DNA of 42,299 nt from Microgenomates group bacterium (GCA_049303675.1 JBAQNJ010000001.1:956001-998299); one strand, 5' to 3'; positions 17,891 to 25,355 are shown, counted from the first letter of the stretch. The notes: a model not told the origin generated them from the sequence alone. Numbers and translations are program-made.

Positions 17891-17963
17891 AGCCCAGAAA
17901 GGAACTTGAATCCTTGACCTTCCCCTTACCAAGGGGATGCTCTACCAACTGAGCTATCTGGGC
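17891..17963 (-). tRNA. tRNA-Thr (anticodon GGU)
   Basis: Manual cloverleaf: gcccaga/tctgggc, D arm gctc-agttggta-gagc, anticodon arm tcccc-ttggtaa-gggga, aggtc, T arm aagga-ttcaagt-tcctt. Confidence 0.9.
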
Positions 17964-17994
17964 GAATTGTTAATATTGGTACTGAATTATACTT

Positions 17995-18043
17995 GACCTG
18001 TCCGAAAGCTTTCGGACTGCTCTACCAACTGAGCTATCTGGGC
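17995..18043 (-). pseudogene. Truncated tRNA copy (5' acceptor to variable loop) with the palindromic anticodon arm
   Basis: The first 26 nt are identical to tRNA-Thr(GGU) (gcccagatagctcagttggtagagca). These are followed by gtccgaaagctttcggac and aggtc. There is no T arm. Confidence 0.6.
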
Positions 18044-18134
18044 GGTATCGATATTGTAACAAAAATTTTACTACTTACTCAGTCTAAGTAGCCTGTTTTT
18101 GTTATAATTCCTAAGTAAAGTCAAAATTAAATTT

Positions 18135-18156
18135 TATTTCGTAATTCGTAATTAAT
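18135..18156. repeat. Heptad array, TAATTCG family
   Basis: Reads tatttcg taattcg taattaa, just upstream of tRNA-Ser. Confidence 0.7.
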
Positions 18157-19690
18157 AATTTTTAATTGATTTTGGAGAGGTGCTCCGAATGGTAAGGAAC
18201 TTGTTTTGAAAACAAGCGCCAGCAATGGCATGCAGGTTCGACTCCTGTCCTCTCCGCCAACCAGAAAATGGGGGCGAATTTAGCAAAATTCGCCAGCCAA
18301 TATTGCCCTGAAATCCGAAATTTTTATCTTTTAAAACGAAGTTCGAGCCGATATTTTTTAAGAAACTTCTAAATTCATAAGGATTGTTTTTCTTTATTAA
18401 TATTTTGGCAAGGCTTGCGGATAAAATCATTTCTCTCATTTGTTCGAGCCAATTATTTCCTTTTGATTCAAAATCTTTTAAATCCTGCTCGATACCAGTT
18501 TGTTGATTGATAAATAAATTTTTCTTGGTGAGGTATTGTTGATTATCAATCAAATTATCGAGTCGGAAATTTAGCAGGTCATCAAGTTTTCGGTTAATTT
18601 CTGATTTTTGAGTTACCAGATTTTGAATCAATGGTTGGGATTGGATATTTGCTTGATTGGTTTCTTGGTCTAACTCTACCAACATCTTTTTTACCCAACT
18701 TTTCGGCAAAGAAACTTTTTGAATCTTGGTTTTGATTTGGTCTATCAATTCCTCCTCTCGTAAATATTTTTCGGGACAATTACTTTTCTTTTTAGTACAG
18801 CGATAATAGTTATGTCCTTTTTGGGTTTCGGCGGTTATCAGGCAACCACACCCGCCACATCTCATTAGTCCCGAAAAAATAAACTCGTGTTTTCGTTGCC
18901 GATGTTTTTTGCCTCGGTTATTCATCACCTCTGCCACCAAATCAAAAAGTTTCTTAGAAATAATTGGCTCATGAACTCCTTTATACAATTCACCATTAAA
19001 TCGAATCAGTCCGTAATAAATTGGGTTTTGTAACATAAATTGGACACGGGATTCTGATAAAGTTTTATCTTGATAACTTTTAAGGTTTGACTTAGCGAAA
19101 AATCCGGCGATACCTTTGAGGGTGCAATCGCCAGTCGAGTACATTTCAAATGCCTTTTTGATTAGTTTTGCTTTGGGAATATCAATATCAATTCCTTTGG
19201 TTTTACGATTATTGACATAACCAATCGGAGCAAAAGACGGCCATAAACCATTCCTTAGTTTTTGTCTGATTCCTCGCCGGATATTTTCGCTTAAATTATC
19301 AACATAATATTTACTCTGACCAAAGGCAATATTTAACATAAACTTGCCTTGTGGGGTTGAGTCAAACCAAAAAGTAGGAAACTTTAAATCAAGAATTTTT
19401 CCCGTGTCCAATAAATAAATGATTTTCCCGCCATCAATTGAGTTTCTGGCCAATCTATCAGGGTGCCAAGCCAAAATGCCCTGTGCTTCGCCTTTTTCCA
19501 TTCTCTCAATCATTTGATTAAAAACAATCCTTCCGGGTTTCTTGGCAGTTTTTGCCTCGGTGAACGAGGCAACGATTTCAATTTTTTGAATTGTGGCAAA
19601 TTCTTTTAGCTCAGCAATCTGATCACCAATACTTTTTATTTGTCTTTCTTCACTGTCGGTTGATTTTCTAGCGTATAAAAAGTATTTCAT
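18152..19690 (-). CDS. Large serine recombinase (integrase); the last ~60 codons read through the att arm and antisense tRNA-Ser
   Basis: Has the N-terminal resolvase catalytic motif YARKSTDSEERQ, a recombinase domain, and the zinc ribbon CGGCGCLITAETQKGHNYYRCTKKKSNCPEKY. Confidence 0.9.
   Translation of the reverse strand: MKYFLYARKSTDSEERQIKSIGDQIAELKEFATIQKIEIVASFTEAKTAKKPGRIVFNQMIERMEKGEAQGILAWHPDRLARNSIDGGKIIYLLDTGKILDLKFPTFWFDSTPQGKFMLNIAFGQSKYYVDNLSENIRRGIRQKLRNGLWPSFAPIGYVNNRKTKGIDIDIPKAKLIKKAFEMYSTGDCTLKGIAGFFAKSNLKSYQDKTLSESRVQFMLQNPIYYGLIRFNGELYKGVHEPIISKKLFDLVAEVMNNRGKKHRQRKHEFIFSGLMRCGGCGCLITAETQKGHNYYRCTKKKSNCPEKYLREEELIDQIKTKIQKVSLPKSWVKKMLVELDQETNQANIQSQPLIQNLVTQKSEINRKLDDLLNFRLDNLIDNQQYLTKKNLFINQQTGIEQDLKDFESKGNNWLEQMREMILSASLAKILIKKNNPYEFRSFLKNIGSNFVLKDKNFGFQGNIGWRILLNSPPFSGWRRGQESNLHAIAGACFQNKFLTIRSTSPKSIKNY
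18174..18259 (+). tRNA. tRNA-Ser (anticodon UGA), long variable arm, encoded CCA
   Basis: Acceptor ggagagg/cctctcc, anticodon arm cttgt-tttgaaa-acaag, variable arm cgccagcaatggcat, T arm gcagg-ttcgact-cctgt, then g-cca. The D stem is imperfect. Confidence 0.85.
18254..18337 (+). repeat. attL-side arm: 84-bp perfect inverted-repeat partner of 19715-19798
   Basis: I compared the reverse complement base by base and found it identical over 84 nt. It contains the internal hairpin ggcgaatt/aattcgcc. Confidence 0.95.
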
Positions 19691-19696
19691 TTTTTT

Positions 19697-19948
19697 AAGC
19701 CCGCATTTGGCCCAGTTTTAAAAGATAAAAATTTCGGATTTCAGGGCAATATTGGCTGGCGAATTTTGCTAAATTCGCCCCCATTTTCTGGTTGGCGGTG
19801 TGCATTCGAAAATATTCGAACAGATTTTCAAAATTTATAATGACGGGCGGAACTCGCCCCCCTCCGATTTCCGCCCGATGGAAAGTGAGGATTTCAATAA
19901 AACTGCCAAAATATCGGCTCGAACTTCTTTTGGGCCAAATGCGGGCTT
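19697..19948. repeat. 18-bp inverted repeat (aagcccgcatttggccca / tgggccaaatgcgggctt) enclosing the internal att-like site
   Basis: The arms lie at 19697-19714 and 19931-19948. The right arm is followed by a T-run, and the left arm is preceded by a T-run on the plus strand (an A-run on the minus strand). Confidence 0.9.
19715..19899 (-). repeat. Internal inverted attP-like composite site (arm shared with attL + core + arm shared with attR)
   Basis: 19715-19798 is the reverse complement of 18254-18337. 19792-19899 is the reverse complement of 24851-24958. The two share the core ttggcgg (19792-19798). Confidence 0.9.
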
Positions 19949-20033
19949 TTGAAAAAATGATAAAAAATACTGACATAATGCTAACTATAGTATGTAGAAC
20001 TAAAGTTAGCAAGTGGTTATAATAATCCGCATA

Positions 20034-20255
20034 ATGAAAAAACAAATATTAGTAAAATTCGGACAAAGTGTTAGACAAGAAAGAGAGAAACAGGGGTTGT
20101 CACAGGAGGAGTTGGCTAACAAGGCCAAAGTACACCGAACTTACATTGGAATGATTGAAAGGGCTGAGAAAAATATTACTCTGGCTAATATCGAAAAAAT
20201 CGCTAATGCTTTAAAAATGAAGATTAGTAACCTACTAAAACAAGATGAAGATTAG
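20034..20255 (+). CDS. XRE-family helix-turn-helix transcriptional regulator
   Basis: GLSQEELANKAKVHRTYIGMIERAEKNITLANIEKIANAL is a typical Cro/C1 HTH. The ORF track starts at 20013, but ATG 20034 (MKKQILV) is more likely, with TATAAT at 20018-20023. Confidence 0.85.
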   Translation: MKKQILVKFGQSVRQEREKQGLSQEELANKAKVHRTYIGMIERAEKNITLANIEKIANALKMKISNLLKQDED

Positions 20256-21690
20256 CCAATTATTTAAGTTAGACAAAACCCAGTTTGAACTTGATTTTGT
20301 TGATGTGGATATAGAACATGATAATTGGTTGTTTCTCGACCCTTTTTTTATTTCGACACGAAATGATCCCTGGTCGGTAGATGCAACGAGAGTTATTAAA
20401 TCTTTTTTTCAGTACATCATAGATTTGACAAAATCCGGAAATGTTAACCAAGCTAAGGGCTACTTTACTCATTTGAACGAACCAAACGAAACCTGCTTGG
20501 GAATGTCAAAAGGTAACCCCAGGGGGAATGGTGTTGGAAATGATAACGCTGAAAAGATTTTTGATAGCTTGTTGACTAGTAAAGCTATGGAGACCGGATT
20601 AGTAGAAAACCTAGAAGATTCTGCAATTTTTATTGACGGAATTGCTAGAGATAAGGTATCTGACGTCACAACAAATATAATCAGACGTAATTTAATCGAA
20701 TATACAAAAAATCAATGTGATCTATGGGGAATACCAATTACAAATAATTGTCCGTCTGGGTTCTATTGGAACCAAAATTCTAAAAAGTGGGATCAGTCCT
20801 ATACAGAAAGGTTGGTAATTAACAATAAATTGTTTCTACTTGTACCCAAGAATTCGGTTACATTTTATAAGGATTATATCGACCAAAAATACTATCAACA
20901 TTATGTTCTAAATTTTCTTCAAGATGAACACATGAAGAACAATAGTCCTTTAGTTCAGCATAGGAAGCTAAAAGACGGAACAATCCATAGTTTTGTTACC
21001 AAGAAAGACATTAAAGAAAAAGATTCACCTTTTTCCAAGGACCTCTTAAGAGAATTTACACGTAAACATCCTGATATATTCGCGAAATTTAGAAATGAAA
21101 AAAAGGGATCAGTCAAACCTCTAAGCAATGAGCAGCTAACTAACATAAGTCTTAATGAAGTCGTCGAATATTTAGTTAAGTGTCTAGATGAGATACGACC
21201 CGGAGGTGACGAAGCCTCCAAATATCATAGATTAATGATTGGAATCTTAGAACTAATTTTTTATCCACATCTAACAAACCCAATAAAGGAAAGAGAGATA
21301 AACGAAGGAAGAAAACGAATCGATATTGCAATGGATAATGCCGCAACAAACGGTTTTTTTCATCAACTACATGATATTCACAAGATATCTTCCAGGTTTG
21401 TTTATATCGAATGTAAAAACTATTCGGATGATCCAGAAAATCCTGAATTAGATCAGCTATCGGGAAGATTTTCCGTAAACACTAGCAATTTTGGCATATT
21501 AGCTTGCAGGGTGGTAAATAATAAAAAACTTATGACTCAAAGGTGTATTGATCTCTATAAACAAAAAAAGGAGTTGATCATCGTATTTGACGATGGGGAA
21601 ATAAAAGAAATGTTGAACCACTTACTAACAGATTCATCCTATATAGATTCCTGTCTTTGCAACAAAAGAAGGGAAACAGAACTTGCATGA
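20245..21690 (+). CDS. 481-aa protein with a C-terminal PD-(D/E)xK-like nuclease motif; N-terminal region unknown
   Basis: GRKRIDIAMD ... FVYIECKNY fits the D...(D/E)xK pattern of the restriction-endonuclease fold. It overlaps the XRE gene by 11 nt. No methyltransferase is nearby. Confidence 0.55.
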   Translation: MKISQLFKLDKTQFELDFVDVDIEHDNWLFLDPFFISTRNDPWSVDATRVIKSFFQYIIDLTKSGNVNQAKGYFTHLNEPNETCLGMSKGNPRGNGVGNDNAEKIFDSLLTSKAMETGLVENLEDSAIFIDGIARDKVSDVTTNIIRRNLIEYTKNQCDLWGIPITNNCPSGFYWNQNSKKWDQSYTERLVINNKLFLLVPKNSVTFYKDYIDQKYYQHYVLNFLQDEHMKNNSPLVQHRKLKDGTIHSFVTKKDIKEKDSPFSKDLLREFTRKHPDIFAKFRNEKKGSVKPLSNEQLTNISLNEVVEYLVKCLDEIRPGGDEASKYHRLMIGILELIFYPHLTNPIKEREINEGRKRIDIAMDNAATNGFFHQLHDIHKISSRFVYIECKNYSDDPENPELDQLSGRFSVNTSNFGILACRVVNNKKLMTQRCIDLYKQKKELIIVFDDGEIKEMLNHLLTDSSYIDSCLCNKRRETELA

Positions 21691-21755
21691 TTTTTATTGC
21701 AGCCTTTCATAGTCCACGGTGATTAAATATTATATTCGTGACATAATACGTAAGA

Positions 21756-22760
21756 ATGAAATATTCAAATAGACTTGGCGAAATCAGTAACGAGCAACTA
21801 CAAAAGGCTTTAGATAAATTAAAACTTGGGAAATTTGTAAAAGCAGAACCGATAGGATTTGGTAATTTTGGCCAAAATCTTTTTCTAACGAGTGATAAGG
21901 GTGAGTTTGTATTGAGAGGTAAGCCCCATTATCCGTGGCAATTCCCAAGTGAACAATTTATGGCCAATCTGTTTCATGAAAACACTAAAGTTCCGGTACC
22001 TTGGCCTTATTTAGTTGATGGGGATATGGGTATTTTTGGTTGGAGTTATTGCATTATGCCAAGACTTCAAGGATTGCAACTTAAAGATAAGGCTGTTTAC
22101 GATCAATTGCCTTTGAAAGATAAGCTTGAAGTAGCCCAAGCTTTGGGGGAAAACTTAGCCGAAATGCAAAAACTTACCTGGGAATTCAGTGGTAAGTATG
22201 ATTTGGAATCAAGAACAATAAAACCTTTAGAAAAACCATGGGATCAATGGGTTATTGATTTCATTGACGACTTGGTATCTAAAAGCGCGACTTACAGCGA
22301 CAAAACTCCCAAGAAGGATGTGGAATGGATAAATCAGTTAATTGAGACTGGGAAGGAAGCACTACAAGCCCCATTTACGCCAACCTTTGTGATGCATGAT
22401 TATCAAATTAGTAATATGGTGGTTGATAAGGTAAATGGTAAGTGGCAAGTAACTGGACTTTTTGACTTAATGGAAAATTATTTTGGCGATGGTGAATCAG
22501 ACCTAAGTCGGGTATATGTGGCCTACGCTGAGGAAAATGAAACTTTAGCCTATGCATTTTTAAATTCTTATCTATCTAAAATGAAAGTAAGACAAGGATT
22601 TGAGAAGCGATGGCCAATTTACATGATTCTTGATCGAATCGTGGTGTGGGAATGGGCTCAAAGAAACGGGAAATGTTGGTGGAAACAGGAGTACACATTT
22701 AGAGAATGGGTAGAAGGCAATACTTTACTTGACGTTAAGAGATTAATAATCAAGAAATAA
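21756..22760 (+). CDS. Phosphotransferase (APH/CotS-like kinase fold) family protein
   Basis: FVMHDYQISNMVV (catalytic loop-like) and GLFDLMENYFGDGESDLSR (Mg-binding D plus the GDxxxDL motif) resemble aminoglycoside/choline kinase-type enzymes. Confidence 0.7.
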   Translation: MKYSNRLGEISNEQLQKALDKLKLGKFVKAEPIGFGNFGQNLFLTSDKGEFVLRGKPHYPWQFPSEQFMANLFHENTKVPVPWPYLVDGDMGIFGWSYCIMPRLQGLQLKDKAVYDQLPLKDKLEVAQALGENLAEMQKLTWEFSGKYDLESRTIKPLEKPWDQWVIDFIDDLVSKSATYSDKTPKKDVEWINQLIETGKEALQAPFTPTFVMHDYQISNMVVDKVNGKWQVTGLFDLMENYFGDGESDLSRVYVAYAEENETLAYAFLNSYLSKMKVRQGFEKRWPIYMILDRIVVWEWAQRNGKCWWKQEYTFREWVEGNTLLDVKRLIIKK

Positions 22761-22764
22761 ATAT

Positions 22765-23712
22765 ATGGATCAACAAATATTTATGAATAATATTAGCCCA
22801 AAACAAATAATTACTGATTTTTCCAATAAAAGAAAAAACCCTGTGTTGTTTTTAGATATTAAGGAAGTCGGTAAAAATGTTGCATTATTAGTATCCGAAC
22901 TGTTAAAAGGTAAATTTTTTGATTCTCTCGATGTAGTCTTGCAAACCCCAGGTGGAAATATAGATGCTGCTTTTTTAATTGCAAAATTAATTAGAAAAAG
23001 CACTAAAAACCTCACAATTTTTGTGCCTTTGTATGCTAAAAGCGCAGGAACATTGATCTGTCTGTCGGCTGACCATCTTTTGTTAACTGATATATCAGAA
23101 CTAGGCCCGCTAGACACACAAATATTTGAACAACAAGATGGCGGGCAATCGCAATATGTATCCGCTCTAAACGGGTTTAAAGCCTTGGAACAGGTGCAAC
23201 TGCATTCAATTGAAACTCTCGATATTACAACGAAGCTCTTACTTTCAAAAAGTTCAATGAAGATTTGTGAGGCTGTAGAACTGGCTTCCGATTTCTGCGG
23301 AAAAACTAGTGGAAAACTGTATCAGAAACTTAATCCGGCAAAAATTGGTGAGTATGCAAGGGCGTTAGAAATTGGTGAATCGTATGGAGTCACGATACTT
23401 AATAAGTATTGTAAATGGGATAGACAAAAAGCAGAAATGACTGTAAAAATTCTGGTAAAGCAGTATCCATCACACGAGTATGTAATTGATCTTGAGGAAT
23501 TAACTGACTTGGGAATACCCGCAGAACTTATTTGTGACGAACTTGTTGATTCCGTAAAAATATTAAGGAATTTGATGTTACAATCTGCCGAGACACAAGT
23601 AGAGCTAATTGAGCCAACAACGAATCAAAATACTACTCTACCAAATACTACCCCACCTGTCTCTATTAGTGGTAATATTAATATAGATGATAATGAAAGA
23701 TTGGCGAGATAA
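22765..23712 (+). CDS. ClpP/SDH-fold (S49-like) serine protease family protein
   Basis: LQTPGGNIDAAFLIAKLIR...VPLYAKSAGTLICLSADHLLL...GPLDTQ resembles the SDH family Clp-fold serine proteinases (from memory). Confidence 0.65.
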   Translation: MDQQIFMNNISPKQIITDFSNKRKNPVLFLDIKEVGKNVALLVSELLKGKFFDSLDVVLQTPGGNIDAAFLIAKLIRKSTKNLTIFVPLYAKSAGTLICLSADHLLLTDISELGPLDTQIFEQQDGGQSQYVSALNGFKALEQVQLHSIETLDITTKLLLSKSSMKICEAVELASDFCGKTSGKLYQKLNPAKIGEYARALEIGESYGVTILNKYCKWDRQKAEMTVKILVKQYPSHEYVIDLEELTDLGIPAELICDELVDSVKILRNLMLQSAETQVELIEPTTNQNTTLPNTTPPVSISGNINIDDNERLAR

Positions 23713-23934
23713 AAACTTAACAAAAGTAAGAAACAGTAAGACAGATTCGGTGAGAGATGTTTTTAAGAGAGAAATACTAAATACCAGAATAGTTATTTCG
23801 GGAATTCTCAGAGAGCAAGACGATAAATATCGTCAAGAAAATATTGTGAATGGTAGTATTAAGTCGCCACTAAGTTGTATTTGAATTTGTCATTATAAAA
23901 TTAGGAACAAAGTTTAATAGGGTATAATTTATCT

Positions 23935-24183
23935 ATGACTTCCAAAAAAATAGCAACAATTTTATTAGTCGTTGGTATAGTTGGGGCTTTGAATAACTCA
24001 ACAGCCTTATCAAATGGAGGAATCGGGGCTTTATCTTTATTTATCGGCTCAATTTTTGGTGCAGTATTGGGTTCAGATATAGGTCGATTAATTACAATGT
24101 TAGTTGATATTATTTGTAGAGCCTCACTTATTTTCTTTATTTTAGCCGCCATTTACTATTACAAATCGAAAAAAGAAATCTAG
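23935..24183 (+). CDS. Small membrane protein (2-3 TM segments)
   Basis: An 82-aa hydrophobic ORF. I prefer it over the antisense ORF 23901-24152 because it is co-oriented with the rest of the island. Confidence 0.45.
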   Translation: MTSKKIATILLVVGIVGALNNSTALSNGGIGALSLFIGSIFGAVLGSDIGRLITMLVDIICRASLIFFILAAIYYYKSKKEI

Positions 24184-24236
24184 TTAATACTTCAATTTTT
24201 GAAAACGAATCGTAATAATAGAGGTATAATCGCATT

Positions 24237-24779
24237 GTGAATGCTAATTTAAACACAAAGGTTAAACCCCTATTTAATTGCTTAAAAGGCTATTATGAAA
24301 CAGCACCTGAATCAGGATACTGTAGACATCCACCAATTTGGGAAAACTACAATAAGACAATTGATGAACTAAATAATATAACTTCCGTCAATTACGACAG
24401 ATTTAAAATAACTAATATAAGAGATGATGCAGGTGATCAAGTTGTAGATGTAAATGAATACAGACAAAAATTATTAGGTTTGGTCAAATATCTCGAGGGT
24501 GAATATGATTTTTTTGAGGAAACAAAAAGCAGCTCGGGTGTAATCTTTAATAATAATCAGACTCAAAACTTACATTTAACCATTGTTTTAGAGTTTCAAA
24601 CTTTGGTCGATAAAAAATTATATGGCTCAAAACTCGATGAACAAGAAAAGGGTTATTTGGAGAAAATTAAAGAGCTATTGCCTGGAATAAAATCAATAAC
24701 AGAAATAGTCAATTTAATTCTTTCCTTGGGTAAGACAATGGGATTGACCTTAGACCAGATAACAAAATTGTTTACATAA
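24237..24779 (+). CDS. Hypothetical protein (GTG start)
   Basis: A 180-aa ORF, the last cargo gene. No motif recognised. Confidence 0.45.
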   Translation: MNANLNTKVKPLFNCLKGYYETAPESGYCRHPPIWENYNKTIDELNNITSVNYDRFKITNIRDDAGDQVVDVNEYRQKLLGLVKYLEGEYDFFEETKSSSGVIFNNNQTQNLHLTIVLEFQTLVDKKLYGSKLDEQEKGYLEKIKELLPGIKSITEIVNLILSLGKTMGLTLDQITKLFT

Positions 24780-24850
24780 AAGCACGAGAAGTAATATTTA
24801 TTTTTTGTTATTACATAAAAAAATTTGCCACAATTAAAAAATTGAAATCG

Positions 24851-24958
24851 TATTGAAATCCTCACTTTCCATCGGGCGGAAATCGGAGGGGGGCGAGTTC
24901 CGCCCGTCATTATAAATTTTGAAAATCTGTTCGAATATTTTCGAATGCACACCGCCAA
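24851..24958 (+). repeat. attR-side arm: 108-bp perfect inverted-repeat partner of 19792-19899
   Basis: I compared the reverse complement base by base and found it identical. It contains the hairpin gggcggaa/ttccgccc and the ttcgaa-atattt-tcgaa repeats. Confidence 0.95.
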
Positions 24959-24959
24959 A

Positions 24960-25355
24960 ATGAAAAACAATCTCCCCATCCGTGCAGTCAAAGCTGTTAT
25001 CCGAAACAAGAAAGGCGAGATATTATTGCTTCAGAGAAATCCCCAAATATCTCTCCAAGATAACTGGGACCTTCCTGGAGGGCTAGTCGAAACTGGAGAA
25101 AACTTCAAGAATGCTCTCATCCGCGAAGTAATGGAAGAGTTGAATCTAACAATCAACATCACCAAACAAGCAGGCAAGTGGCATTTTATCCGATTCAAAG
25201 ACAAGCAATTAGTACATGTCCAAAACTACCACTGTACTGTTAACAGTGGCGATATTCAGCTCAGTGAAGAACATCACGACTATAAATGGGTAAACCCTTC
25301 TGACATTCGAAAGTATTTAGTAAAAGACGACAGCTTTTATACTGCTATAAACTAG
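24960..25355 (+). CDS. NUDIX hydrolase
   Basis: Contains the Nudix box GGLVETGENFKNALIREVMEELNL. The ORF track start at 24945 lies inside the att arm, so ATG 24960 (MKNNLPIRAV) is preferred. Confidence 0.85.
   Translation: MKNNLPIRAVKAVIRNKKGEILLLQRNPQISLQDNWDLPGGLVETGENFKNALIREVMEELNLTINITKQAGKWHFIRFKDKQLVHVQNYHCTVNSGDIQLSEEHHDYKWVNPSDIRKYLVKDDSFYTAIN

What the first reader, a model, noticed from the sequence alone, without database searches (positions are those of the whole stretch)
18254..24958. A 6.7-kb island inserted at the 3' end of tRNA-Ser(UGA), bounded by a 7-bp direct core
The heptamer CCGCCAA occurs at 18254-18260, where it covers the last two acceptor bases, the discriminator, the CCA and one further base of tRNA-Ser. 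It occurs again in the same orientation at 24952-24958. Between the two copies lie a large serine recombinase and six ORFs that have nothing to do with the housekeeping genes on either side. Outside the core the two junctions share no similarity. That fits large serine recombinases, whose attB and attP share only a short central core. Deleting 18261-24958 in silico places the tRNA-Ser CCA 2 nt upstream of ATG 24960 of the NUDIX gene. This tRNA-next-to-ATG layout also occurs at two other loci in the window, which supports the reconstructed empty site.
Basis: partly seen in the sequence, partly recalled or inferred. Interest (0 to 1): 0.7.

Follow-up and report, generated by a model that had tools for sequence, protein, structure and literature searches.

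The report
Serine-recombinase island with internal inverted attP
A 6.7-kb foreign island carrying defence-type genes was inserted into the end of a serine tRNA gene by a large serine recombinase, and it belongs to a widespread, apparently undescribed family that keeps a full inverted copy of its own joining site just upstream of the recombinase gene, which may let that gene flip.

Summary
CCGCCAA sits at 18254-18260, on the 3' end of tRNA-Ser(UGA), and again at 24952-24958. A genuine large serine recombinase (LSR) and foreign-composition genes lie between the two copies. The heptamer alone is weak evidence: it occurs 11 times in the window.

It sits inside a 185-nt site (19715-19899) that is exactly [right island end]-core-[left island end], 100% identical to both ends. 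So the predicted circle junction (attP) is present inside the island, between the recombinase ATG and the cargo promoters.

This three-site layout, B|P'[rec]P'|P[cargo]P|B', recurs in most of 80 relatives from many phyla. They target many tRNAs and carry different cargo.

The recombinase reading frame crosses the crossover point. Integration replaces a conserved C-terminal tail with tRNA-antisense sequence, and the internal site holds a spare copy of the native gene end.

Three of 63 relatives have the recombinase cassette in the opposite orientation, directly downstream of the tRNA.

Best reading (inferred): the cassette can invert, switching the recombinase between a silent truncated form and an active full-length form. 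No empty site was found.

The parts
18174..18259 (+). tRNA-Ser(UGA), the integration target. Its last bases (CCG at 18254-18256) hold the crossover. The element supplies CAA, which restores the encoded CCA.
   Evidence: ARAGORN. Rfam tRNA, 51 bits. Junction alignment across relatives.
18254..18260 (+). S1 core, the attL-type site B|P'. The minimal shared core in the family corresponds to 18254-18256/7.
18261..18337 (.). P' arm, the left end of the island. On the minus strand it encodes the last ~26 codons of the recombinase before the core. It carries a TTCGC motif at the P-type distance from the core.
   Evidence: 100% inverted repeat with 19715-19791. Motif spacing.
18152..19690 (-). Large serine recombinase ORF in its integrated form (512 aa). 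Codons 478-479 (TGG CGG) are the reverse complement of CCGCCA. The last 33 codons are tRNA-Ser antisense and are not native.
   Evidence: Pfam Resolvase 3.9e-20, Recombinase 6.8e-14, Zn_ribbon_recom 1.6e-10. Alignment A1 with invariant R8/S10. A118 integrase match.
19690..19714 (.). palA, the inner arm of a stem that pairs with 19931-19955. It abuts the recombinase ATG.
   Evidence: Complementarity kept in about 16 relatives despite unrelated sequences. RNA fold z=-6.0, AUG buried.
19715..19899 (-). S2, the internal inverted attP-like site. P' copy is 19715-19791, core 19792-19798, P copy 19799-19899. Read on the + strand, 19715-19840 is a promoterless spare 3' end of the recombinase gene: ...SGW-R-CAFENIRTDFQNL, with stop at 19838-19840, followed by a hairpin.
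   Evidence: Tail conservation. The same site is present in 60 of 72 relatives.
19908..19955 (.). I6 (19908-19931), a displaced 24-nt copy of recombinase codons KNIGSNF, and palB (19931-19955). The outer edge at about 19956 is the end of the conserved backbone.
19957..20035 (.). Divergent promoter-like sites. Two on the minus strand point through S2 towards the recombinase. One on the + strand serves the HTH gene. They lie in the swappable cargo module, outside the recombinase cassette.
   Evidence: Consensus scan only; the count is not above the shuffle expectation. Homology boundary.
20013..20255 (+). XRE-type HTH, of the restriction-modification 'control protein' type. It is the first cargo gene and is divergent from the recombinase.
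   Evidence: Pfam HTH_3 1.9e-15. PADLOC Control_protein 3.3e-24. An HTH lies next to S2 in 17 of 27 relatives.
20245..21690 (+). 481-aa cargo protein (DUF8370), similar to the candidate defence protein PDC-M36A.
   Evidence: PADLOC 9e-40. PF28123 in the record's precomputed hits.
21756..23712 (+). Two cargo genes: an APH-like phosphotransferase (21756-22760) and a ClpP-like SDH-type serine protease (22765-23712).
   Evidence: Pfam APH 1.3e-14 and SDH_protease 8.4e-16.
23687..24779 (+). Three small cargo ORFs without family matches: 65 aa, 82 aa (hydrophobic) and 180 aa.
24792..24850 (.). Conserved right-end module. It includes a 36-nt copy of recombinase codons 28-40 (24816-24851).
   Evidence: 94% identity to L003 over 24792-24955. 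Repeat with 19572-19608.
24851..24951 (+). P arm, the right end of the island. On the minus strand it encodes the native recombinase tail, the stop codon and a hairpin. It carries the TTCGAA T-loop mimic 5 bp further from the core than in the tRNA.
   Evidence: 108-nt 100% inverted repeat with 19792-19899. Motif offset.
24952..24958 (+). S3 core, the attR-type site P|B'. B' has no conserved sequence in the family.
24960..25355 (+). NUDIX hydrolase gene, the host-side flank. It is not part of the island.
   Evidence: Pfam NUDIX 9.6e-21. Host-like composition.

Best explanation
SHOWN. Positions 18261-24951 are a foreign island integrated by its own large serine recombinase (LSR) at the 3' end of tRNA-Ser(UGA). 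The crossover lies in the CCG just before the CCA. The attB has only one specific half-site, the tRNA T-arm and acceptor end. The element's P arm mimics the T-loop TTCGA motif 5 bp further out, which is the canonical LSR attB/attP design. The native recombinase reading frame runs across attP. Its conserved last ~14-25 residues (W-R-x-x-F-x-x-I-R-T-x-F...), its stop codon and a hairpin are encoded on the P arm. Integration therefore replaces this tail with tRNA-antisense codons. The element also carries a third site, S2 (19715-19899). It is a complete P-core-P' in inverted orientation, placed between the cargo-side promoters and the recombinase ATG. As a result the recombinase gene is bracketed by perfect inverted P' arms and the cargo by perfect inverted P arms. 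The layout is conserved across a large family found mostly in Patescibacteria. INFERRED. S2 is a second, active attP. Recombination between S2 and a tRNA-bearing site, either the element's own S1 or a fresh attB, places the recombinase cassette in the opposite orientation. In the usual orientation (the window; 60 of 63 relatives) the gene is quiescent. It lacks the native tail, it lies antisense to tRNA read-through, and in this clade its start codon is buried in a long stem formed by sequences either side of S2. In the flipped orientation (3 of 63 relatives) the gene lies directly downstream of the tRNA, regains its native 3' end from S2, and loses the stem. The switch would then work as a lock. 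Active recombinase flips its own gene into the silent state after integration, and rare reversal re-arms the element for excision (S1 x S3). No separate directionality factor would be needed. The cargo here is a C-protein-controlled candidate defence module.
For: LSR identity: three domains; invariant R8/S10; A118 integrase match. Three-site anatomy: (84-nt and 108-nt arms, 100% identical). Family-wide layout: L003, L006, L007 have different cargo and different tRNA-Ser genes; at least 590 relatives in species-representative genomes; recombinase-flanking repeat in 60 of 72 loci, cargo-flanking repeat in 31 of 40, mostly 100% identical. Core position -3..-1 before the CCA. Half-site logic, with T-loop TTCGA 15 nt from the core end in B and 20 nt in P, and B' arbitrary. 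This matches the established attB/attP rule summarised in PMC11722253. Tail encoded on the P arm and conserved with coding-type periodicity (second codon position least variable in 9 of 10 codons; Thr codon ACN uses all four bases). The tail lies beyond the part of the protein that aligns to the A118 integrase structure, which reaches residue 432. Flipped cassette with the tRNA co-directional just upstream of the ATG in L008, L054 and L089, against 60 loci in the window's orientation. Cargo never seen flipped (0 of 17). Circle-type or tandem-type junction (recombinase 3' end-core-P arm-right-end module) in sister element L091, and about 10 of 120 homologues with native-type tails. Promoter-like sites lie outside the cassette. 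The stem buries the AUG (z=-6.0; P(unpaired) 0.03-0.16 in the usual leader against about 0.5 in the flipped leader in the window's clade). Foreign composition. Cargo annotation.
Against: No empty site or circle was found for this island. Inversion at this locus has not been observed; the window shows one orientation only. Canonical LSRs do not recombine attL with attP without a cofactor, so S1 x S2 inversion by the enzyme is an assumption. The flipped loci could instead come from integration through S2 or from RecA-mediated recombination between the 84-nt repeats. In the best flipped example (L008) the recombinase is truncated (375 aa) and its 3' end joins an unexplained sequence rather than the expected P arm. 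L054 and L089 end at the recombinase, so their far sides are unseen. Stem-mediated burial of the start codon is clear only in the window's clade and absent in about half of the relatives. The promoter calls are consensus matches at background frequency. Part of the tail conservation (the CGA-AC codons) is also explained by the DNA motif the enzyme must recognise. A crossover at the core cannot explain why the long arms stay 100% identical. The structure model gave no information on the tail.
Confidence: 0.5

Rival explanations
1. S2 is a genuine second attP, but its job is not inversion. Either it is an operator where the recombinase binds between the divergent promoters and its own gene, as Tn3/gamma-delta resolvase does at res. 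Or it is simply an alternative integration site: the circle has two inverted attPs and either can be used, giving the two orientations seen. On this view in-situ flipping is incidental or absent.
For: S2 lies exactly between the promoter-like region and the recombinase ATG, in the spacer between divergent genes. Canonical LSR rules (PMC11722253) allow attP x attB but not attL x attP. Integration through S2 would by itself produce the tRNA-P'-ATG arrangement seen in L008, L054 and L089. The usual orientation dominates 60 to 3.
Against: An operator needs about 50 bp, not 54-334-nt arms kept identical to the element ends, and it need not contain the intact native 3' coding end, stop codon and hairpin. 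Integration through S2 predicts cargo in the reverse orientation with the HTH at the far end, which was not seen in 17 of 17 informative loci.
Confidence: 0.25
2. The inverted copies exist to pair in a single-stranded nucleic acid rather than to act as duplex recombination sites. One version involves incoming or displaced single-stranded DNA. The internal complement of both ends would act as a splint that brings the two island ends together and rebuilds a duplex attP. This resembles the internal complementary region of DIRS retroelements or the folded attP of CTX phage. The other version involves the recombinase mRNA, where 5'-3' pairing controls translation or stability.
For: Four separate inverted pairs (P, P', I6, pal) all keep perfect complementarity while their sequences diverge 8-19% or completely between relatives. 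Pairs as short as 16-30 nt are unlikely to be homogenised by homologous recombination. The pal stem folds strongly (z=-6.0). The elements carry no transfer genes and live mostly in Patescibacteria. From general knowledge, not tested here, these bacteria are thought to depend on DNA uptake.
Against: No single-strand intermediate, Rep, relaxase or ligase is encoded. Serine recombinases need duplex sites and cut both strands. I6 and pal are missing in the subfamily with the longest arms. No Rfam family matches.
Confidence: 0.12
3. The island is an ordinary LSR island, and the internal site is a relic of a partly deleted second copy, a past rearrangement or an assembly artefact, with no function.
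For: Tandem arrays and partner swapping between related elements do occur (L006, L092, L094, L100). Small scars exist, such as the 36-nt copy of recombinase codons 28-40 at 24816-24851. Short-read assemblers break at such repeats.
Against: The same layout is found in independent assemblies of relatives down to about 47% protein identity and in several phyla. The arms are mostly 100% identical within a genome although diverged between genomes. The assembly k-mer of 141 exceeds the 84-nt repeat in several contigs. The window comes from a 998-kb contig.
Confidence: 0.03

Closest known systems
Phage-type large serine integrases (A118/LI, phiC31, Bxb1, SPbeta SprA)
   Same: Same three-domain protein: catalytic Ser domain, recombinase domain, and zinc ribbon with coiled coil. 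Short core identity between sites. The attP half-site motif lies 5 bp further from the centre than the attB motif. Integration leaves hybrid attL and attR sites.
   Different: The ORF crosses attP, so integration swaps the C-terminal tail. A second, inverted attP lies inside the element. The attB has only one specific half-site, a tRNA 3' end. No conserved candidate directionality factor is present. The family is almost absent from viral contigs: 2 real relatives in IMG/VR.
SSV1-type archaeal integrases and mycobacteriophage integration-dependent immunity (attP inside a gene)
   Same: The crossover site lies inside a coding sequence of the element, so the integrated and free forms encode different proteins. 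This rests on established knowledge; the archaeal case is reviewed in PMC8371274, listed.
   Different: Those systems use tyrosine recombinases and carry no inverted spare copy of the lost gene end. Here only a short regulatory-looking tail beyond the canonical fold is exchanged.
Serine DNA invertases (Hin, Gin, Cin, Pin) and C-terminal switching by inversion (Mu G segment, R64 shufflon)
   Same: Inverted sites bracket a segment. Inversion would exchange the 3' end of a gene and its promoter context, giving two expression states.
   Different: The enzyme here is a large serine recombinase, not a small invertase with a C-terminal HTH and an enhancer. The segment that flips is the recombinase gene itself. 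One partner site is a tRNA-element junction. The R64 shufflon uses a tyrosine recombinase.
Internal complementary region of DIRS retroelements; the two inverted FRT sites of the yeast 2-micron plasmid; the folded attP of CTX phage
   Same: Each has an internal sequence that is the reverse complement of the two element termini joined together (DIRS), two inverted recombination sites that split a circle into two flippable halves (2-micron), or inverted site copies that pair (CTX).
   Different: These are eukaryotic retroelement or plasmid systems, or a single-stranded phage, and all use tyrosine recombinases. The resemblance is recalled from general knowledge and is formal only.
tRNA-targeting cargo islands such as tycheposons
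   Same: They are small site-specific islands at tRNA genes that carry variable adaptive or defence cargo and accumulate in tandem (bioRxiv 10.1101/2020.12.28.424599).
   Different: Of 937 tycheposons and cryptic elements, 910 use tyrosine recombinases, and many carry replication genes. No internal inverted attP is described in that paper.

Membership tests
Large serine recombinase (protein family) | N-terminal resolvase-type catalytic domain with the nucleophilic serine in a Y-x-R-x-S-T motif | tested here: met
   PF00239 3.9e-20 over residues 4-148. YARKSTD motif, with R8, K9 and S10 invariant in 22 sequences.
Large serine recombinase (protein family) | Recombinase domain plus a zinc-ribbon domain with an inserted coiled coil | tested here: met
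   PF07508 6.8e-14 and PF13408 1.6e-10. Residues 198-432 align to the A118 integrase C-terminal domain, 4kis. The model predicts long helices at 330-434 (low confidence).
LSR integrative element (attP x attB gives attL + attR) | The two junctions share only a short core, and the crossover falls at the same place in relatives | tested here: met
   The stretch shared by all three sites always includes tRNA positions -3..-1. Its shortest form is 3 nt.
LSR integrative element (attP x attB gives attL + attR) | attP half-sites carry the outer recognition motif about 5 bp further from the centre than attB half-sites | tested here: met
   The T-loop TTCGA ends 15 nt from the core end in B. GTTCG(A/G)A ends 20 nt from it in P in nearly all 27 loci.
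LSR integrative element (attP x attB gives attL + attR) | An empty attB and an excised circle are observed | tested here: inconclusive
   No empty site was found. A junction of the circle type is seen in sister element L091, but a tandem array would give the same contig.
LSR integrative element (attP x attB gives attL + attR) | A cognate recombination directionality factor is needed for excision | not testable with these tools
   The only recurrent partner gene is an XRE/C-protein HTH, present in 17 of 27 loci. No known factor was recognised.
Serine DNA invertase systems (Hin/Gin type) | A small (~190 aa) recombinase with a C-terminal HTH that acts on two identical inverted sites with an enhancer | tested here: not met
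   The protein has 492-512 aa and LSR domains. The two sites flanking the cassette differ on their outer halves, tRNA against P arm.
Invertible-segment switch (functional class) | Both orientations of the segment are found in nature | tested here: inconclusive
   Among relatives, 60 loci have one orientation and 3 the other. L007 and L008 share 99.9% identical DNA but have opposite cassette orientation. No two orientations were shown within one population, and none at this locus.
Gene split or altered by integration (attP inside an ORF) | The crossover lies within the coding sequence, and the free form encodes a conserved end that the integrated form lacks | tested here: met
   TGG CGG at codons 478-479 is the core. 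The P-arm-encoded tail is conserved in 27 loci with coding periodicity. At least 63 of 120 homologues carry tRNA-antisense tails and about 10 carry native-type tails.

The most novel reading that the evidence does not exclude
A large, cross-phylum family of tRNA-targeting serine-recombinase elements controls its own mobility without a separate directionality factor. The recombinase gene spans attP, so the DNA state sets the protein isoform. A built-in inverted attP lets the enzyme flip its own gene between two states. One is a silent, tail-less state, antisense to the tRNA. The other is an active, full-length state driven by the tRNA. The result is a self-locking integration switch that ferries restriction and defence cargo among ultra-small bacteria.
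Probability: 0.3. Interest if true: 0.85.

Novelty: new variant of a known kind. Interest (0 to 1): 0.68.

Why it matters
Large serine recombinases are major genome-engineering tools, and how they choose between integration and excision is an active question. This family is very abundant: thousands of homologues, and at least 590 hits in species-representative genomes. Its design departs from the textbook in three linked ways. The target has a single specific half-site, a tRNA end. The reading frame crosses attP, so integration changes the enzyme's C-terminus. A complete inverted attP is kept inside the element.

If the tail or the inversion controls directionality, it would be a compact, cofactor-free switch. 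It could be tested directly with a few hundred base pairs of DNA and one protein.

There are two practical consequences. Circle-junction searches will give false positives for such islands, because the junction is already inside them. Assemblies will break, or mis-orient the recombinase, at these repeats.

Biologically, these elements appear to be a main vehicle for restriction-modification and candidate defence genes in Patescibacteria.

Tried and rejected
1. Palindromic crossover dinucleotide (CG) that would make site orientation meaningless. Rejected: relatives have CAG, CAC, GAG or CTG at the same positions.

2. Cargo segment as a phase-variable invertible unit. Not supported: the HTH lies next to S2 in 17 of 17 informative loci.

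3. S2 as a relic or assembly artefact. Rejected on family-wide conservation.

4. Empty-site searches, all negative.
- Exact junction of this island.
- Exact junction of sister element L007.
- Exact-protein look-ups of both NUDIX start variants.
- Nearest NUDIX homologues: at most 60% identity, and the one examined lies in an archaeal-type neighbourhood.

5. Phage origin. Only 2 real relatives in IMG/VR.

6. Known RNA family in the S2 region. None found.

7. AlphaFold model of a native-tail homologue (P0005), to see where the tail docks. Mean pLDDT was 70.9 and the tail about 50, so it was uninformative and I ran no fold search.

8. A 213-bp mini-circle or MITE origin for the circularly permuted I6-P-core-P' arrangement.

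9. Literature searches for this layout. Nothing was found, but absence from the held library does not prove novelty.

Full report
**Observation check**

ARAGORN and Rfam place tRNA-Ser(UGA) at 18174-18259 on the + strand. CCGCCAA occurs at 18254-18260 and 24952-24958 in the same orientation. The first copy covers the last two acceptor bases, the discriminator, the CCA and one more A. Removing 18261-24958 leaves CCA-AA-ATG of the NUDIX gene. Two other tRNAs in the window are followed at once by an ATG: 11931/11932 and 35289/35289.

The heptamer is weak evidence by itself. It occurs 11 times in 42 kb against 3.6 expected, and one of 100 shuffles reached 11.

The region between the copies is compositionally foreign:
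- GC is 0.346 against 0.400 in the flanks (p=2e-5).
- GC skew is +0.08 against -0.29 (p=4e-8).
- Tetranucleotide distance from the flanks is 0.259, against at most 0.121 for 16 host windows of equal size.

The window is part of a 998-kb contig of GCA_049287145.1.

A third CCGCCAA lies on the minus strand at 19792-19798, and it is not isolated. 19715-19798 is a perfect 84-nt inverted copy of 18254-18337. 19792-19899 is a perfect 108-nt inverted copy of 24851-24958 (E 1e-41 and 2e-55).

Read on the minus strand, 19899-19715 is therefore [right end of the island]-core-[left end of the island].

I call the three sites S1 (B|P', at the tRNA), S2 (P|P', inverted) and S3 (P|B', at NUDIX). The layout is:

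tRNA | P' [recombinase, minus strand] P' | P [HTH and cargo, plus strand] P | NUDIX

The recombinase gene is bracketed by inverted P' arms and the cargo by inverted P arms.

**Genes**

- The 512-aa ORF at 18152-19690 (minus strand) has the resolvase, recombinase and zinc-ribbon domains of a large serine recombinase (LSR). It has the catalytic YARKSTD motif and matches the A118 integrase structure.
- The HTH gene at 20013-20255 is of the restriction-modification control-protein type (PADLOC 3e-24).
- The 481-aa protein resembles candidate defence protein PDC-M36A (9e-40).
- The remaining cargo is an APH-like kinase, a ClpP-like SDH protease and three small ORFs.

**The layout is a family trait**

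The recombinase has thousands of homologues. The closest ones (88-95% identical) have the same two repeat pairs but unrelated cargo. They sit at tRNA-Ser(gct) in L003, at tRNA-Ser(cga) in L007, and next to a second LSR island at tRNA-Ser(tga) in L006.

Of the 80 loci kept:
- 60 of 72 with enough upstream sequence have the repeat flanking the recombinase (median 99 nt; 37 at 100% identity).
- 31 of 40 have the repeat flanking the cargo (median 123 nt, up to 334 nt; 20 at 100% identity).

The hosts are mostly Patescibacteria, with some Ignavibacteriota, Margulisiibacteriota, Omnitrophota and others. The targets are tRNA-Ser, Gln, Asn, Leu, Val, Arg, Trp, Glu, Tyr and Pro.

Between the window and L003 or L007, homology runs from the tRNA to 19956-19958, stops, and resumes at about 24792 in L003 (about 24883 in L007). 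The backbone is therefore the recombinase cassette, S2 and a short right end. The promoter, HTH and cargo form the exchangeable module.

**Site logic**

Across about 27 loci, the stretch shared by S1, S2 and S3 always contains tRNA positions -3 to -1 before the CCA. It can be as short as 3 nt. The crossover dinucleotide therefore lies there. The 7-bp identity in this window is partly fortuitous.

That dinucleotide is not palindromic in most relatives. S2 is therefore truly inverted relative to S1 and S3. It follows that S1 x S3 would excise the island, and that S2 with either neighbour would invert a segment.

On the tRNA side, the T-loop TTCGA ends 15 nt from the core end. On the P arm, a GTTCG(A/G)A mimic ends 20 nt from it in nearly every locus. 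This 5-bp outward shift is the established difference between attB and attP half-sites of LSRs; the background is summarised in PMC11722253.

The sequence beyond the core at S3 (B') shows no conservation. The attB therefore has only one specific half-site. This explains tandem arrays in which one recombinase's 3' end is joined to a neighbour's P arm (L006, L092, L094).

**The reading frame crosses attP**

Codons 478-479 (TGG CGG) are the reverse complement of CCGCCA. The last 33 codons of the integrated ORF are tRNA antisense. If the frame is continued from the core into the P arm, it reads W-R-CAFENIRTDFQNL-stop, followed by a hairpin.

The same construction in 27 loci gives a conserved motif, W-[RLW]-x-x-[FLYM]-x-x-[IV]-R-T-x-F, often followed by x-E-N-P. 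The variation is of the coding type: the second codon position is least variable in 9 of 10 codons, and Thr codons use all four third bases. Part of this conservation, the invariant CGA-AC, is also the DNA recognition motif.

A118 integrase aligns to residues 198-432. By my reading of the sequences, it ends near the IGWR at 466-467. The tail is then an appendage beyond the canonical fold, and the integrated form is probably still catalytically whole.

Of the 120 best homologues, at least 63 end in tRNA-antisense sequence and about 10 in native-type tails. S2, read on the + strand from 19715 to 19840, is a promoterless spare copy of the native 3' end of the gene.

**Evidence on dynamics**

- In 60 loci the recombinase 3' end overlaps the tRNA in antisense, as in the window. 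In three loci (L008, L054, L089) the tRNA lies co-directionally just upstream of the ATG, with the P' arm between them.
- L007 and L008 share 99.9% identical flank and cassette DNA but have opposite cassette orientation. Both were assembled with a k-mer (141) longer than the repeat.
- The cargo was never seen reversed: 0 of 17 loci with a recognisable HTH. This fits the half-site logic, since S2 x S3 has no B-type half-site whereas S2 x S1 has one.
- Sister element L091 shows the recombinase 3' end joined through the core to a P arm that continues into the right-end module. This is the true circle junction, although a tandem array would give the same contig.

Caveats apply. In L008 the recombinase is truncated and its 3' end joins an unexplained sequence. 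L054 and L089 end at the recombinase. No alternative form was found for this island itself.

**Expression context (suggestive only)**

Promoter-like sites lie at 19957-20035, outside the cassette. Two of them point through S2 towards the recombinase, but their number is at background level.

Sequences either side of S2 (19690-19714 and 19931-19955) form a stem. In a predicted RNA fold it closes a 216-nt loop and buries the start codon (z=-6.0).

In the window's clade, the predicted probability that positions -18 to +3 are unpaired is 0.03-0.16 for the usual leader. It is about 0.5 for the leader expected after flipping. The effect is weaker or absent in about half of the other relatives. The stem keeps its complementarity in about 16 relatives although the sequences are unrelated.

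In the usual orientation, tRNA read-through would be antisense to the recombinase. After flipping it would be sense.

**Most likely mechanism**

Shown:
- An LSR island sits at tRNA-Ser with three sites.
- The frame crosses attP, and a spare native 3' end is held in S2.
- Both cassette orientations exist in the family.

Inferred:
- S2 is an active second attP.
- The cassette can be inverted, or inserted either way.
- The usual orientation is quiescent, because it has a foreign tail, a buried start codon and antisense transcription.
- The flipped orientation is active, because it has the native tail, a free start codon and tRNA-driven transcription.

Because recombinase is made mainly in the flipped state, the system would relax into the silent state after integration and re-arm only rarely. 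This would account for the 60:3 ratio. I put about 0.5 on this overall statement, and less on the self-locking detail.

Rivals:
- S2 is an operator, or only an alternative integration site (0.25).
- The inverted copies work by pairing in single-stranded DNA or RNA (0.12).
- S2 is a relic or artefact (0.03).

**Unexplained**

- A crossover at the core cannot homogenise the arms. Yet the arms are 100% identical within genomes while 8-19% diverged between relatives. This needs either gene conversion or selection for pairing.
- A 24-nt copy of codons KNIGSNF (18334-18357) lies at 19908-19931, on the far side of the P arm in S2. S2 is thus a circular permutation of core-P'-I6. This is conserved in one subfamily and absent in the other.
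- L100 shows a cassette whose 3' end is joined to another element's HTH-proximal P arm.

**Comparison and novelty**

The protein is a member of the LSR family, and the element behaves like an LSR integrative island. Three features set it apart, and five searches of the held literature found no description of them:
- a single-half-site tRNA target;
- an ORF that spans attP;
- an internal inverted attP.

Formal parallels are SSV-type integrases and mycobacteriophage integration-dependent immunity (attP inside a gene), Gin/Hin and shufflon C-terminal switching, the 2-micron inverted FRT sites, and the DIRS internal complementary region. None of these is an LSR system. I rate the element a new variant of a known kind.

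Noticed in passing
window 17964-18046 (minus strand): A 27-nt exact duplicate of the 5' part of tRNA-Thr(GGT) lies at 18018-18044 and matches 17938-17964. Beside it is a perfect 18-nt palindrome (18000-17) in the place of the anticodon arm. This is a tRNA-Thr pseudogene or scar between the two tRNA genes, possibly left by an earlier integration event.
   Followed up: partly
window 18152-19690: The recombinase is absent from the called genes of this record in the public collection; only 61-aa and 93-aa fragments are listed there. The window's own protein also did not appear in the homologue list. The likely reason is that the ORF overlaps the tRNA.
   Followed up: no
whole window: The host DNA has an unusually strong and uniform negative GC skew (about -0.3) on the + strand, whatever the gene orientation. 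The island stands out sharply against this background.
   Followed up: partly
L006 11506-18477: A second, different LSR island with a 577-aa recombinase occupies tRNA-Ser(tga). The relative of the window's element is stacked behind it, and its recombinase 3' end is joined to a diverged P-type arm. This is tandem accretion at one tRNA.
   Followed up: partly
L092 1-8400; L100 1-3527: Elements of two subfamilies are stacked together. In L100 a recombinase cassette is joined at its 3' end to another element's promoter, HTH and RE_TaqI side. This suggests that cassettes and cargo modules exchange partners at the core.
   Followed up: partly
proteins P0007, P0015, P0051, P0061, P0065, P0070, P0072: Homologues of 817-894 aa, about twice the usual length, match the query over about 90% of its length at about 45% identity. 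They may be fusions or carry long extensions.
   Followed up: no
window 24960-25355: The closest homologues of the flanking NUDIX protein are only about 60% identical. The one examined lies among archaeal-type genes (Topo VI, primase S, RIO kinase), so this flank gene may itself have been acquired horizontally.
   Followed up: partly
cargo of relatives (L007, L092, L094, L100): The cargo next to the C-protein HTH is often restriction-modification or defence genes: DNA methylases with Vsr, RE_MjaI, RE_TaqI, SMODS. This family therefore appears to be a common vehicle for defence genes.
   Followed up: partly
window 24816-24851: A 36-nt copy of recombinase codons 28-40 (19572-19608) abuts the right-end P arm. 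It is shared with L003 and appears in similar form in L091.
   Followed up: partly
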